In this document: piece by piece, positions 44,801-46,560 of the stretch
Layout of the letters: every line of letters starts with the position of its first letter
Numbering within the stretch: the first letter of the stretch is position 1
Origin: Patescibacteria group bacterium
Lineage (GTDB): Bacteria; Omnitrophota; Gorgyraeia; Gygaellales; Profunditerraquicolaceae
Assembly (NCBI GenBank): GCA_035506195.1
Contig: DATJPV010000023.1
Span: forward strand, 1,050-65,049
DNA: 64,000 nt
Direction of reading: 5' to 3'
Notes under the pieces: model-generated
Databases searched by the model: none
The model's input: the letters and a program-made list of their open reading frames with translations, nothing else
What the model was told of the DNA's origin: nothing
Translations under genes and position numbers: made by a program

Positions 44801-46372
44801 TTAGTTGGGAGAGAACCCCGTACACGAGATCGCGAATTTTGTCGCCGGGACCTCTTCCATTTCTTCGCGGACGATAGACGTGATGCTGATATCCTTAAAA
44901 TATTTGCTGAATGCCGGATTAGCCCTTAAGGCGGCAATAAAAATGTTAACTGCTTCAAATTCCTTTTCGCCATCCTTCAGGTAGGCCTCTCCTTCCAGCA
45001 CGACGGAAACCTTGTTCTCTTCTTTCGTAAAAGCGAAATTTGTCAGCCAGACCCCATCCGGAAGCAGGCTGGGGATAATCTGGAGCTGATCGGTCAGATA
45101 GAGCCGTTTACGCACGAGGCTGTCCATGGCATCCAGCCTCTTTTTAAACTCCGTGCTTACGCCCTTTAAGTCTTCATAGGGGATATTGGGATTTACCGCC
45201 GACACCTGCGGCCGGGCATTCAGGATCCTGTTGAGCTGCTGCTGCAACGGCTGTAGCTGGTAGTAGCCGTAACCGAACACTCCCATGCACAGCAGGATAC
45301 ATCCGATGACGACGCGGGAATCGAGCTTAAAATCAGCTAGGGAGGCAAGCGAAAATTTCTCCGCCGGGGCAGGAACGCCGGGCTCCTTGGCGGTCCTGGT
45401 CTTTGCCCTGGCTGCCAACAGGTCGATTTTGGGGGCGATCTTGACTTTCTTTGCCAAAGAGCAGCCGTAACTTTTCAGGAAGCTCATGCTAAACGCTATA
45501 TCCCGTCCGGTAAAGGGAGCGGTTTCCGCGAACCTGACCGCCAATCCTATTTCCTTGATCAAGGCCTCCAGGTCTGCCCGGGAATCTTCGCTGGCGATGA
45601 CAAAGGTCTTCTCGATATTTTTCGTCGGAAATTTCCGGTCATAATAATCCAAAGAAATGCGGATCTCCGTCTTGAGCTTCTCCAAAATGGTAGCTAGGTC
45701 TATCTTTTCGGTCTGCCCCAGCTCATCCGGCCTGCCGATAAGAGTGATATCGCGGCTGAACAACGGAAAACCGTTATCCAAAACTACGAAATTAACTTCG
45801 TTTTCCTCCTGGAAATCCATACTCATGATCCCGATGGTCCCCTTGTTGCTCATCCTTCCCAGGTCGGTCACTTGCAAAAAACGCAATATGCTGAACATCG
45901 AATACTCAATAGTATTGATTTTGATATCCAGTTGGCTCAAGATCGCTAGGTACTTGCTCAGGACTTCCTTCTTTATGCCGACAAAGAGGATCAGGTTCTT
46001 ATGGCTGCTGCGGTCAAATTGAATCTGGTAGGCCGCGACCAGGTCTTCGACCTTGAATGGTATATATTTCTTCGCCTCGAACATCACGGCCCCGCCCATT
46101 TCTTCGGAAGGCAATGCCGGCAGTTCAAAAGTACGTATGATCAAGTCCCTGCCGGAAAGGGCGATGGAGGCCTCTTGACTGTCGATCTTATGCGCGCGCA
46201 AGGCGTCTTTAAAAAGCGCTACCATCTTAAGTTCGTCAGGCACCTTCTCTTCAAATTCGGGGCCCGAGACGGAAGCGCGGGGTACCTGAATGTTATTCAA
46301 GACCTTCTTGCCGTCAGACTCCAGGATCGTGATGATCTTCGGGCCAAAATAGATTCCAAGCGAATTTTTCAT
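44801..46372 (-). CDS. fused PilM (actin-like ATPase fold) :: PilN-like protein (GspL-like architecture)
   Basis: 523 aa. Residues 1 to about 320 are PilM-like (GIYFGPKIITILE..., FELPALPSEEMGGAVMFEAKKYIPF). A linker and one TM helix (VVIGCILLCMGVFGYGYY) follow. The periplasmic part is PilN-like (LPDGVWLTNFAF...VVLEGEA). Confidence 0.85.
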   Translation of the reverse strand: MKNSLGIYFGPKIITILESDGKKVLNNIQVPRASVSGPEFEEKVPDELKMVALFKDALRAHKIDSQEASIALSGRDLIIRTFELPALPSEEMGGAVMFEAKKYIPFKVEDLVAAYQIQFDRSSHKNLILFVGIKKEVLSKYLAILSQLDIKINTIEYSMFSILRFLQVTDLGRMSNKGTIGIMSMDFQEENEVNFVVLDNGFPLFSRDITLIGRPDELGQTEKIDLATILEKLKTEIRISLDYYDRKFPTKNIEKTFVIASEDSRADLEALIKEIGLAVRFAETAPFTGRDIAFSMSFLKSYGCSLAKKVKIAPKIDLLAARAKTRTAKEPGVPAPAEKFSLASLADFKLDSRVVIGCILLCMGVFGYGYYQLQPLQQQLNRILNARPQVSAVNPNIPYEDLKGVSTEFKKRLDAMDSLVRKRLYLTDQLQIIPSLLPDGVWLTNFAFTKEENKVSVVLEGEAYLKDGEKEFEAVNIFIAALRANPAFSKYFKDISITSIVREEMEEVPATKFAISCTGFSPN

Positions 46373-46560
46373 TGTCCTTCCCCGGGTTGCGACAGACGCC
46401 TGCGGCTCTTAAGCCAGGCATCTATATCCCGCCTGTCAAATCTCCATACTCCGCCTACTTTGATACCGGAAATTTTGCGCTGGGAAAGCCAGTTGTAGAT
46501 AGTCTGCTTGCGTAACCGCAGATAATCTGCCAACTCATCGATATCCATCAATCTCGACAT
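46369..46560 (-). CDS. excisionase/MerR-superfamily (HTH_17-like) small DNA-binding protein
   Basis: 63 aa: MDIDELADYLRLRKQTIYNWLSQRKISGIKVGGVWRFDRRDIDAWL. This is the classic Xis/AlpA-type helix-turn-helix plus wing pattern. Its stop overlaps the pilMN start (ATGA). Confidence 0.8.
   Translation of the reverse strand: MSRLMDIDELADYLRLRKQTIYNWLSQRKISGIKVGGVWRFDRRDIDAWLKSRRRLSQPGEGQ

What the first reader, a model, noticed from the sequence alone, without database searches (positions are those of the whole stretch)
46369..46560. Excisionase-type HTH protein as first, translationally coupled gene of the pilus assembly operon
The 63-aa ORF (MDIDELADYLRLRKQTIYNWLSQRKISGIKVGGVWRFDRRDIDAWL) has the Xis/AlpA/HTH_17 pattern normally linked to mobile-element excision. 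Here there is no integrase and no att-like flank. Its TGA overlaps the ATG of pilM::pilN (tcat at 46369-46372), so the two should be made stoichiometrically from one mRNA. A dedicated Xis-like DNA-binding protein embedded in a type IV filament operon is not a standard component. It could be an autoregulator, a DNA-bending architectural factor, or a DNA-handling part of an uptake pilus.
Basis: partly seen in the sequence, partly recalled or inferred. Interest (0 to 1): 0.6.

Follow-up and report, generated by a model that had tools for sequence, protein, structure and literature searches.

The report
Conserved small regulator leading Omnitrophota pilus operon
A 63-residue DNA-binding protein of the excisionase/BldC fold is the conserved first gene of the type IV pilus assembly operon across the uncultured phylum Omnitrophota, and it is most likely that operon's own regulator rather than a remnant of a mobile element.

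Summary
ORF 46369-46560 (-) encodes a 63-aa HTH_17 protein whose TGA overlaps the ATG of a PilM::PilN fusion (ATGA).

It is a real gene under strong purifying selection. In about 156 independent Omnitrophota loci from three diverged subfamilies, it lies directly upstream of pilMN-pilO-pilP-like-pilQ-pilB wherever downstream DNA exists. There is no integrase context and no relative in 2.9 million viral contigs.

The predicted fold is a stand-alone winged HTH, closest to Streptomyces BldC, which binds direct repeats head-to-tail.

Its promoter is conserved almost base for base. It has an A-tract, TTGACA, a 17-nt spacer and an extended -10, plus AGTAAGT direct repeats spaced 10 bp apart and in phase. 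One copy lies inside the spacer. The double repeat is almost exclusive to this intergenic region.

The best reading is a BldC-like autoregulator of the pilus machinery operon, probably a repressor. DNA binding is inferred, not shown.

pilMN has its own conserved GGAG Shine-Dalgarno inside the HTH gene's last codons, and other clades have gaps instead of an overlap.

This is a new member of a known kind, of moderate interest.

The parts
46369..46560 (-). Gene for the 63-aa stand-alone winged-HTH protein (HTH_17 / BldC-like fold), first gene of the operon
   Evidence: ORF and translation. Pfam HTH_17 E=2.2e-16. AF2 model pLDDT 86 with helix-helix-wing-helix. Foldseek top hit is BldC 6ama/6amk. 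Purifying selection.
46633..46662 (-). Three 10-bp direct repeat units (AAGTAAGTTT, AAGTAAGTTT, degenerate AAGTAAAAAA): candidate operator upstream of the -35
   Evidence: Sequence. The exact double repeat is unique in the 64-kb window, with 0.09 expected. AGTAAGT lies at -33 and -23 from TTGACA in 65 and 49 of 77 loci, all in one 10-bp phase. 83 of 84 double repeats in 800 kb of loci lie in this intergenic region.
46632..46638 (-). A-tract (UP-element-like) between the repeats and the -35
   Evidence: Consensus AAAAAAAcAC at 1.1-1.9 bits per position across 80 loci. Similar A-tract+TTGACA promoters occur at 12354-12368 and 47364-47378, so this part is a generic strong-promoter feature.
46623..46628 (-). 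-35 hexamer TTGACA of the operon promoter
   Evidence: Sequence. Found with a 16-18-nt spacer in 80 of 82 loci, and the spacer is 17 nt in 77 of those 80. In subfamily 2 it is found in 40 of 42 loci, all with a 17-nt spacer.
46606..46622 (-). 17-nt promoter spacer with a degenerate in-phase repeat copy (AAGTAAAC) and a TGn extended -10 motif
   Evidence: Spacer consensus AaatAagt.ttTTATGT in subfamily 1 and AAGTAAgtctATTATaG in subfamily 2. The AGTAAGT copy at +7 is in phase with the upstream copies.
46600..46605 (-). -10 hexamer TCTAAT (TTTAAT in most relatives)
   Evidence: TTTAAT in 63 loci and TCTAAT in 13 of 80.
46679..46708 (-). Possible distal promoter (CTAACA-18-TATAAT). It corresponds to the distal TATTATAAT-CTAAGTAAGT-CTATTATAAA element of relatives.
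   Evidence: Promoter scan. The distal conserved element was seen in 66 of 75 loci at variable distance. Its function is unknown.
46570..46574 (-). Shine-Dalgarno (AAAGG) of the HTH gene, 9 nt before the ATG
   Evidence: Read directly from the sequence.
46375..46383 (-). Shine-Dalgarno of pilMN (GGGGAAGGA) embedded in the Pro-Gly-Glu-Gly codons of the HTH tail
   Evidence: GGAGA at -11..-7 in 61-74 of 75 loci. The synonymous third position of the Gly codon is A or G in 74 of 75 loci. The tail is disordered in the model (pLDDT<50 for residues 59-63).
46369..46372 (-). ATGA stop/start overlap between the HTH gene and pilMN
   Evidence: Among 81 distinct loci, 59 have a -4 overlap and 16 have a -1 overlap.
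44801..46372 (-). PilM::PilN fusion (523 aa), second gene
   Evidence: Pfam PilM_2 and PilN. Follows the HTH gene in every testable locus.
39215..44791 (-). Rest of the operon: PilO (44261-44791), PilP-like (43728-44264), secretin PilQ (42197-43744), ATPase PilB (40456-42183), platform PilC (39215-40456)
   Evidence: ORFs with gaps or overlaps of at most 17 nt. Pfam PilO, Secretin, STN. T2SSE/MshEN and T2SSF in orthologous loci. The pilin genes from 39072 downward have their own TTGACA-17-TATAGT promoter and no AGTAAGT motif.
46743..47321 (-). Upstream conserved pair: DUF2582 winged-HTH (47115-47321) and a 122-aa membrane-anchored protein (46743-47111). This is a separate transcription unit with its own promoter at 47342-47370.
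   Evidence: Pfam DUF2582 E=3.4e-14. Promoter scan. The pair is present in all subfamily-1 loci, but DUF2582 is absent from 26 of 30 subfamily-2 loci.

Best explanation
The gene encodes a small, basic, stand-alone winged-helix protein of the MerR-like/Xis fold, closest to BldC. It has been fixed as the leader gene of the type IV pilus assembly operon (HTH-pilMN-pilO-pilP-pilQ-pilB-pilC) throughout Omnitrophota.

Proposed mechanism. Monomers bind head-to-tail to AGTAAGT-type direct repeats that recur every 10 bp on one face of the DNA, from about -43 to +27 relative to the start of the -35 hexamer (TTGACA). One copy lies inside the 17-nt spacer of an otherwise near-consensus strong promoter (A-tract, TTGACA, TGn-TTTAAT). 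Because the protein is made from the transcript it controls, it feeds back on the operon. The only repeat copy shared by both large subfamilies sits between -35 and -10, so the most likely sign is negative: homeostatic autorepression that caps output of a very strong promoter. The upstream repeat pair would provide cooperative nucleation and bending.

Shown:
- the gene is real and under selection;
- its fold;
- phylum-wide linkage to pilMN;
- the conserved promoter and the phased repeats specific to this locus;
- an independent Shine-Dalgarno for pilMN.

Inferred:
- that this protein is what binds the repeats;
- head-to-tail oligomerisation;
- the sign of regulation.
For: - Fold: the AF2 model has pLDDT 86 with helix-helix-wing-helix. 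Foldseek top hits are BldC-DNA complexes 6ama/6amk (rmsd 1.6-2.2 over 50-52 columns, probability 1.00), then RacA, Pukovnik Xis, pSK1 Par and RdfS. BldC is a 68-aa protein that binds 9-bp direct repeats as head-to-tail multimers (PMC5859096).
- Linkage in species genomes: HTH is immediately followed by pilMN in all 80 species-representative genome loci that have downstream DNA.
- Linkage in metagenomes: the same holds in 76 of 76 testable metagenome loci and in the divergent 96-99-aa subfamily.
- Invariant DNA-reading surface: QTIYNWL.Q.K..G.K.GGVWRF (recognition helix plus wing) is identical in all three subfamilies. HTH is 71-86% identical where PilMN is 33-49%.
- Promoter footprint, subfamily 1: taaGTAAGTnTaaGTAAGTnTAtatAAAAAAAcAC-TTGACA-AaatAagt.ttTTATGT-TTTAAT in 80 of 82 loci.
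- Promoter footprint, subfamily 2: TTGACA-AAGTAAgtctATTATaG-TcTAAT in 40 of 42 loci. A conserved spacer is not expected for a plain promoter.
- Phasing: 143 of 171 AGTAAGT-like sites between -60 and +20 share one 10-bp phase.
- Specificity: the double repeat is unique in the 64-kb window, and 83 of 84 occurrences in 800 kb lie in this intergenic region.
- The other local HTH is a poor candidate: DUF2582 is missing from 26 of 30 subfamily-2 loci, which still carry the motif.
- Precedent: the HTH_17 gene Mlut_14660, next to Flp-pilus assembly genes in Micrococcus luteus, alters com gene expression and transformation when mutated (PMC8467076).
Against: - No binding data exist. The repeats could be bound by another factor or be part of an unusual promoter or UP element.
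- The sign of regulation cannot be read from sequence. The strongest repeats in subfamily 1 lie at about -68 to -49 from the expected transcription start, a typical activator position.
- Recognition helix and motif are both invariant, so there is no protein-DNA covariation to tie them together.
- Similarity to BldC is structural only: 25% identity, Foldseek E about 1e-2, and no sequence hit at E<=1.
- The repeat period here is 10 bp, against 9 bp for BldC.
- Fold neighbours also include proteins that act through protein-protein contacts (DafA, CbpM).
- The regulon outside the 64-kb window could not be examined.
Confidence: 0.55

Rival explanations
1. Same protein-DNA interaction but the opposite logic. 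The protein is an activator or architectural factor that binds the repeat pair upstream of the -35, bends the DNA or contacts RNA polymerase, and creates positive feedback. That would make pilus machinery expression an on/off switch.
For: In subfamily 1 the best-conserved repeats sit at -33 and -23 from TTGACA, upstream of the A-tract, which is a class-I activator or UP-element position. BldC and Xis-type proteins bend DNA strongly (PMC5859096). Leader-gene placement fits positive feedback as well as negative.
Against: The core promoter is already near-consensus (TTGACA, 17 nt, TGn-TTTAAT, A-tract) and should not need an activator. In subfamily 2 the upstream pair is mostly absent, and the only conserved copy is inside the spacer, which is a repressor position.
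Confidence: 0.22
2. The protein does not act mainly on DNA. It is a protein-binding modulator or assembly factor for the actin-like PilM::PilN protein, as the MerR-like small proteins CbpM (inhibitor of CbpA) and DafA (DnaK-DnaJ assembly factor) act on the partners they are co-transcribed with.
For: Foldseek lists DafA (9dvi_S, rank 3, TMq 0.60) and CbpM (3ucs_A, rank 26) among the fold neighbours. The stop/start overlap with pilMN is conserved in 75 of 81 subfamily-1 loci. Conservation is very high for a 63-aa protein.
Against: The invariant residues lie on the recognition helix and wing. Counting residues in the sequence gives a net charge of about +6, with a KSRRR tail. Locus-specific, phased DNA repeats co-occur with the gene in two subfamilies. 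The overlap with pilMN is lost in subfamily 2, and pilMN has its own Shine-Dalgarno.
Confidence: 0.1
3. It is an AlpA-like processive antiterminator. It binds a promoter-proximal element and loads onto RNA polymerase so that transcription reads through the roughly 7-kb operon.
For: AlpA-type proteins are small HTH proteins of the same broad clan, and the candidate site overlaps the core promoter. That AlpA acts in this way comes from my own knowledge and was not checked here.
Against: There is no Pfam Phage_AlpA hit. No terminator-like hairpin lies in the leader or between the operon genes near the HTH gene. Gene junctions in the operon are overlaps or gaps of at most 13 nt.
Confidence: 0.05
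4. It is a genuine excisionase (recombination directionality factor), or a decaying remnant of a mobile element that happens to lie next to the pilus genes.
For: It matches TIGR01764 'excise' and HTH_17. The closest sequence-level solved structure is mycobacteriophage Pukovnik Xis (E=0.025).
Against: The chromosomal neighbourhood is the same in about 156 loci from many species, with no integrase. No relative was found in 2.9 million viral contigs. Purifying selection is strong.
Confidence: 0.02

Closest known systems
BldC (Streptomyces developmental regulator; PDB 6AMA, 6AMK)
   Same: Both are stand-alone 60-70-aa MerR-like winged HTH proteins without a dimerisation or effector domain. BldC is the best structural match. 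It binds short direct repeats head-to-tail as cooperative multimers of variable length and distorts the DNA (PMC5859096). Here, short direct repeats in one helical phase are conserved in the gene's own promoter.
   Different: Identity is only about 25%, with no sequence-level hit. BldC is a pleiotropic, separately encoded regulator with 9-bp AATTnnnn(C) repeats. This protein is embedded as the leader gene of one operon, its candidate repeats are 10-bp AGTAAGTnTA units, and no other site was seen in 64 kb.
Xis/RDF excisionases (lambda Xis, Pukovnik Xis 4J2N, RdfS 8DGL)
   Same: They share the HTH_17/'excise' sequence family and fold. They form filament-like head-to-tail assemblies on direct repeats, and some (RdfS) also regulate transcription (PMC11963761, abstract).
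   Different: There is no integrase, no mobile-element context and no viral relatives. The gene is fixed in a housekeeping chromosomal locus across a phylum.
Mlut_14660, HTH_17 protein next to Flp/Tad pilus assembly genes in Micrococcus luteus
   Same: It is a small excisionase-family HTH_17 protein genetically linked to type IV filament assembly genes. Point mutations in it or its 5' region change com gene expression and transformation frequency (PMC8467076).
   Different: It is divergently transcribed from the cpaB/tadZ-like operon rather than being its first gene. It lies in Actinobacteria and beside a Tad-type system. It is probably essential and pleiotropic, and its DNA binding has not been shown either.
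Classical MerR-family regulators
   Same: They share the topology of the N-terminal winged HTH (HiNmlR, CadR and SoxR are among the hits).
   Different: This protein has no coiled-coil dimerisation helix and no effector domain (63 aa). The target promoter has a normal 17-nt spacer rather than the 19-20-nt spacer that MerR proteins remodel, and the repeats are direct rather than palindromic.
Known type IV pilus regulators (PilS-PilR, AlgR/FimS, Vfr, c-di-GMP via MshEN/PilZ)
   Same: Like them, it would control expression of pilus genes.
   Different: Those are two-component or cyclic-nucleotide systems that mostly act on pilin genes and are encoded elsewhere. Here a one-domain protein sits inside the assembly operon, and the pilin genes have their own promoter without the motif. 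This comparison rests on my own knowledge of those systems.

Membership tests
Pfam HTH_17 (PF12728) / NCBIfam TIGR01764 'excise' domain | Profile score above the curated cutoff | tested here: met
   HTH_17 scores 60.3 bits against 27, covering residues 4-54 of 63. TIGR01764 scores 50.3 bits against 28.8.
Excisionase / recombination directionality factor | Encoded in a mobile element next to, or together with, a site-specific recombinase | tested here: not met
   The neighbours are UvrA, a TPR protein, ExbB/ExbD and pil genes in about 156 loci, with no integrase. There are zero relatives in IMG/VR.
Excisionase / recombination directionality factor | Stimulates excision by binding arm-type repeats in attR/attP | not testable with these tools
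   No att sites can be defined. The direct repeats present lie in a promoter.
BldC family of regulators | Stand-alone MerR-like winged HTH of about 60-70 aa with no coiled-coil or effector domain | tested here: met
   The AF2 model shows H7-14, H18-26, a beta wing at 33-42 and H43-57, with pLDDT 86. The top Foldseek hits are 6ama/6amk.
BldC family of regulators | Binds DNA direct repeats as head-to-tail cooperative multimers | not testable with these tools
   The evidence is indirect only: AGTAAGT repeats with a 10-bp period, 143 of 171 in one phase, conserved at its own promoter.
BldC family of regulators | Detectable sequence homology to BldC | tested here: not met
   A profile search of PDB sequences at E<=1 finds Pukovnik Xis only, not BldC. 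Structural alignments show 24-26% identity.
Classical MerR family | C-terminal coiled-coil dimerisation helix plus effector-binding domain; acts on promoters with a 19-20-nt spacer | tested here: not met
   The protein is 63 aa and ends after the third helix. The promoter spacer is 17 nt in 77 of 80 and 40 of 40 loci.
MADS defence system protein MAD1 (NF047737) | Equivalog score above cutoff and a MADS gene neighbourhood | tested here: not met
   It scores 72.5 bits, below the cutoff of 80. The neighbourhood is pilus genes, not a methylation-associated defence system.
AlpA-type antiterminators (Pfam Phage_AlpA) | Match to the Phage_AlpA profile; terminators downstream to be bypassed | tested here: not met
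   Pfam at E<=0.01 returns only HTH_17. No terminator-like site lies in the leader or at the HTH/pilMN junction.
CbpM/DafA-type protein-binding MerR-like modulators | Binds and modulates the co-transcribed partner protein rather than DNA | tested here: inconclusive
   Fold similarity only (9dvi_S rank 3, 3ucs_A rank 26).
Canonical type IV pilus machinery components | Homology to PilA-E, PilM-Q, PilB/T/C/D or the minor pilins | tested here: not met
   The only match is to HTH_17. The protein is an addition to the standard gene set.

The most novel reading that the evidence does not exclude
The protein is a phylum-wide master switch for the pilus machinery. It polymerises head-to-tail along a 10-bp-phased array that runs across the whole core promoter (about -43 to +27 relative to the start of the -35 hexamer). 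Through its tight coupling to PilM::PilN it may also sense the assembly state of the machine, for example by being sequestered by the actin-like PilM domain. Pilus assembly would then feed back directly on transcription of its own operon. In ultra-small, probably host-dependent Omnitrophota, this would be the control point for attachment or predation.
Probability: 0.1. Interest if true: 0.75.

Novelty: new member of a known kind. Interest (0 to 1): 0.42.

Why it matters
Omnitrophota are widespread, uncultured, often ultra-small bacteria, and type IV pili are among the few recognisable surface machines they could use for contact with hosts or prey.

This finding gives a concrete, testable regulatory module: a 63-aa protein plus a roughly 90-bp promoter with a defined repeat motif, conserved across the phylum. 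It can be studied in vitro or in E. coli without culturing the organism.

It extends the BldC/Xis way of reading direct repeats to a new phylum and a new target pathway. It also cautions against annotating such genes as 'excisionase'.

It further shows a coding sequence doubling as a ribosome-binding site. The conserved Pro-Gly-Glu tail is explained by the Shine-Dalgarno of the next gene.

Tried and rejected
- Riboswitch or leader RNA: an Rfam scan of 46000-47500 at E<=1 found nothing, so a c-di-GMP (GEMM) or other known RNA element upstream of pilM is not present.
- Phage or mobile origin: a scan of 2.9 M viral contigs gave no relative.
- Sequence search of PDB: only Pukovnik Xis, at E=0.025. 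BldC appears only by fold.
- Protein-operator covariation: a clade (L014, L031, L060, L086) seemed to lack the proximal repeats. The double repeat was found further upstream in L014 and L031. The recognition helix is invariant everywhere, so no covariation test is possible.
- Regulon within the window: single-unit matches at 8938, 12327 and 35990 have a mismatch each. The one at 12327 overlaps the -10 of the secE-nusG-rplK promoter in inverted orientation and was judged to be chance. The pilin promoter lacks the motif.
- DUF2582 as the repeat-binding protein: unlikely, because most subfamily-2 loci lack it yet keep the motif.
- Literature: searches for excisionase+pilM, Omnitrophota+type IV pili or pilM, and HTH_17+pilus found no prior description of this linkage. 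The only useful precedent was Micrococcus luteus Mlut_14660.
- The A-tract+TTGACA part of the promoter is not specific to this locus. Similar promoters occur at 12354-12368 and 47364-47378.
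Full report
**1. The observation**

The minus-strand ORF 46369..46560 exists and encodes 63 aa, MSRLMDIDELADYLRLRKQTIYNWLSQRKISGIKVGGVWRFDRRDIDAWLKSRRRLSQPGEGQ. It matches Pfam HTH_17 over its whole domain (E=2.2e-16, 60.3 bits, cutoff 27) and NCBIfam TIGR01764 'excise'. A match to the defence protein MAD1 stays below its cutoff (72.5 against 80).

Its TGA overlaps the ATG of a 523-aa ORF (44801..46372) that carries PilM_2 and PilN domains. The following minus-strand genes are:
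- PilO (44261-44791)
- a PilP-like protein (43728-44264)
- a secretin with an STN domain (42197-43744)
- PilB (40456-42183)
- PilC (39215-40456)

These are separated by overlaps or gaps of at most 17 nt. The pilin genes follow after a 142-nt gap that holds its own promoter.

Upstream lies a 182-nt intergenic region. Beyond it are a 122-aa membrane-anchored protein, a DUF2582 winged-HTH protein, a zinc-ribbon protein, a TonB-like protein, ExbD, ExbB, a TPR protein and UvrA.

**2. It is a real, strongly selected gene**

A search of 5.8 billion proteins returned 1410 relatives. The best 120 are 62-68 aa long, 78-97% identical, and come from Omnitrophota assemblies wherever a source names them.

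Across 82 distinct loci, mean pairwise identity at codon positions 1, 2 and 3 is 0.83, 0.92 and 0.49. Invariant residues use all their synonymous codons. Conservation is therefore at the protein level.

**3. Linkage to pilM is phylum-wide**

A scan of one genome per species (GTDB) found 442 stretches encoding a relative, and the best 80 loci were fetched. In every locus with downstream DNA, the HTH gene is directly followed by pilMN, pilO, the pilP-like gene, pilQ and pilB.

Identity to the window for each protein:

| Protein | Identity to window |
|---|---|
| HTH | 71-86% |
| PilB | 65-80% |
| PilMN | 33-49% |
| PilO | 22-43% |

The small protein is thus as constrained as the ATPase and far more than its neighbours.

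An exhaustive profile search of 1.84 billion representatives found 251 at E<=1e-10. It revealed two further subfamilies:
- A ~61-aa form ending KWLKSQSRK, found for example in Ca. Zapsychrus and Omnitrophica WOR_2.
- A 96-112-aa form from contigs with 61-62% G+C.

Both sit directly upstream of pilM(N)-pilO-pilP-like-secretin. A metagenome scan added 80 more distinct loci, and all 76 with at least 300 nt of downstream DNA have pilMN next.

All three subfamilies share an identical recognition helix and wing, QTIYNWL.Q.K..G.K.GGVWRF. No relative exists in 2.9 million viral contigs, and no integrase is present in any locus. The excisionase reading is excluded.

**4. Fold**

AlphaFold2 gives a confident model (pLDDT 86) with helix 7-14, helix 18-26, a two-stranded wing at 33-42 and helix 43-57. 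The last five residues are disordered.

Foldseek against the PDB ranks the hits as follows:
- BldC-DNA complexes first (6ama, 6amk; rmsd 1.6-2.2 over 50-52 columns, 24-26% identity, probability 1.00)
- then RacA, DafA, HiNmlR, pSK1 Par, Pukovnik Xis, a transposon excisionase, RdfS and CbpM

BldC is a 68-aa stand-alone MerR-like protein that binds 9-bp direct repeats as head-to-tail multimers and bends the DNA (PMC5859096).

**5. The promoter footprint**

Aligning the DNA upstream of the HTH gene shows remarkable conservation for non-coding sequence.

*Subfamily 1.* In 80 of 82 loci the consensus is taaGTAAGTnTaaGTAAGTnTAtatAAAAAAAcAC-TTGACA-AaatAagt.ttTTATGT-TTTAAT-TaA. The spacer is 17 nt in 77 of 80, and TTGACA lies a median 68 nt before the ATG.

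In the window the elements are:
- TTGACA at 46623-46628
- TCTAAT at 46600-46605
- TG of an extended -10 at 46607-46608
- A-tract at 46632-46638
- repeat units at 46633-46662

*Subfamily 2.* In 40 of 42 loci the consensus is AAAAtaatt...TTGACA-AAGTAAgtctATTATaG-TcTAAT-gAA.t.tAgataA, always with a 17-nt spacer. The same AGTAAGT element is there inside the spacer, which a plain promoter would not conserve.

*Phasing and specificity.* In subfamily 1, AGTAAGT-like sites fall at -43, -33, -23, -13, +7 and +27 relative to TTGACA, and 143 of 171 sites between -60 and +20 share one 10-bp phase. The double repeat is unique in the 64-kb window, with 0.09 expected. In 800 kb of related loci, 83 of 84 occurrences lie in this intergenic region.

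*What is generic and what is not.* The A-tract plus TTGACA part is a generic strong-promoter design in this genome, seen also at 12354-12368 before secE-nusG-rplK and at 47364-47378 before the DUF2582 gene. The repeats are the specific part. DUF2582, the other local HTH protein, is absent from 26 of 30 subfamily-2 loci that keep the motif, which leaves the HTH_17 protein as the obvious candidate binder.

*Distal element.* A second element, TATTATAAT-CTAAGTAAGT-CTATTATAAA-ATTGTATGCTTTAAT, occurs at variable distance upstream in many subfamily-1 loci. It may be a second promoter. In the window it corresponds to CTAACA-18-TATAAT at 46679-46708.

**6. Translation of pilMN**

The ATGA overlap is conserved in 59 of 81 distinct subfamily-1 loci, and a TAATG/TGATG overlap in 16 more.

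However, positions -11 to -7 before the pilMN ATG read GGAGA in 61-74 of 75 loci. These are the Gly-Glu codons of the conserved but disordered Pro-Gly-Glu tail, and the synonymous third base of the Gly codon is A or G in 74 of 75 loci. The tail is therefore conserved at least partly because it is the Shine-Dalgarno of pilMN.

Subfamily 2 lacks this tail, and its HTH and pilMN genes are separated by -17 to +97 nt. Coupling is plausible in the window's clade, but 1:1 synthesis does not follow and the overlap is not essential to the association.

**7. Mechanism**

The best-supported explanation is a BldC-like autoregulator. Monomers would bind the phased AGTAAGT units head-to-tail across the promoter of the operon that encodes them.

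The only copy common to both large subfamilies lies between -35 and -10 of a near-consensus promoter, so I favour autorepression that holds a strong promoter at a set level. The upstream pair in subfamily 1 would aid cooperative loading.

The steps that remain inferred are DNA binding by this protein, its oligomerisation, and the sign of regulation.

Rivals:
- an activator or architectural role from the upstream pair
- a CbpM/DafA-like protein-binding role toward PilM::PilN
- AlpA-like antitermination
- a genuine excisionase

The last is effectively refuted. The others are ranked in the rival list.

**8. Comparison with known systems and novelty**

The protein is a member of the HTH_17 sequence family. 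It works most like BldC/Xis proteins, but it fails sequence-level membership of BldC and fails the context criteria for excisionases, MerR proteins, MAD1 and AlpA.

The nearest functional precedent is the HTH_17 gene Mlut_14660 beside Flp-pilus genes in Micrococcus luteus, where mutations change com gene expression and transformation (PMC8467076). Literature searches found no description of the Omnitrophota HTH-pilM module.

I rate it a new member of a known kind. It is a solid, well-conserved and experimentally tractable regulatory module, not a new principle. Interest is about 0.4.

Noticed in passing
window 44801-46372 (-); all loci L001-L177: PilM and PilN are fused into one ~520-aa protein throughout Omnitrophota. 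This is a GspL-like arrangement. NCBIfam also gives a weak match to the Akkermansia Amuc_1101 PilM-like family.
   Followed up: partly
window 46375-46383 (-): The conserved but disordered Pro-Gly-Glu tail of the HTH protein is explained by the Shine-Dalgarno of pilMN. GGAGA is kept even at the synonymous position of the Gly codon, and subfamily 2, which has no overlap, lacks the tail.
   Followed up: yes
window 46743-47321 (-): A DUF2582 winged-HTH gene and a ~120-135-aa protein with an N-terminal membrane anchor are always present just upstream in subfamily-1 loci, with their own TTGACA-17-TAAAAT promoter (47342-47370). They are mostly absent from subfamily-2 loci. Their function is unknown.
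   Followed up: partly
window 47400-51770 (-): A TPR protein, ExbB, ExbD, a TonB-like protein and a 73-aa zinc-ribbon protein form a conserved block between uvrA and the pilus locus in about half of the genome loci and in subfamily 2. This may be a Tol/Ton-like energising system linked to the secretin.
   Followed up: no
L001, L004, L007, L090-L094 (pilB orthologues of window 40456-42183): The pilus ATPase carries an MshEN N-terminal domain, which the abstract of PMC12448109 lists among widespread c-di-GMP targets. This suggests control of pilus extension by c-di-GMP.
   Followed up: no
loci L001-L089, about -60 to -190 nt from the proximal TTGACA; window 46679-46708 (-): A second conserved element, TATTATAAT-CTAAGTAAGT-CTATTATAAA-ATTGTATGCTTTAAT, lies at variable distance upstream of the main promoter in 66 of 75 loci. 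It looks like a second promoter with an AGTAAGT unit at its -35 position.
   Followed up: partly
proteins P0130, P0134, P0137, P0139, P0142, P0143, P0146: Distant relatives exist with 2-6 tandem HTH_17 domains in a single polypeptide (up to 479 aa). These would be covalent versions of a head-to-tail array on direct repeats.
   Followed up: no
window 12340-12368 (-), 47342-47378 (-), 39170-39200 (-): Several promoters in this genome are close to the E. coli sigma-70 consensus, with TTGACA and a 17-nt spacer. Two of them also have an upstream A-tract. Promoter prediction should work well in this phylum.
   Followed up: no
record titles: Contigs carrying this Omnitrophota-specific locus are labelled in public records as Patescibacteria group, Planctomycetales, Babeliales or Margulisiibacteriota. 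These are probably binning or taxonomy errors.
   Followed up: no
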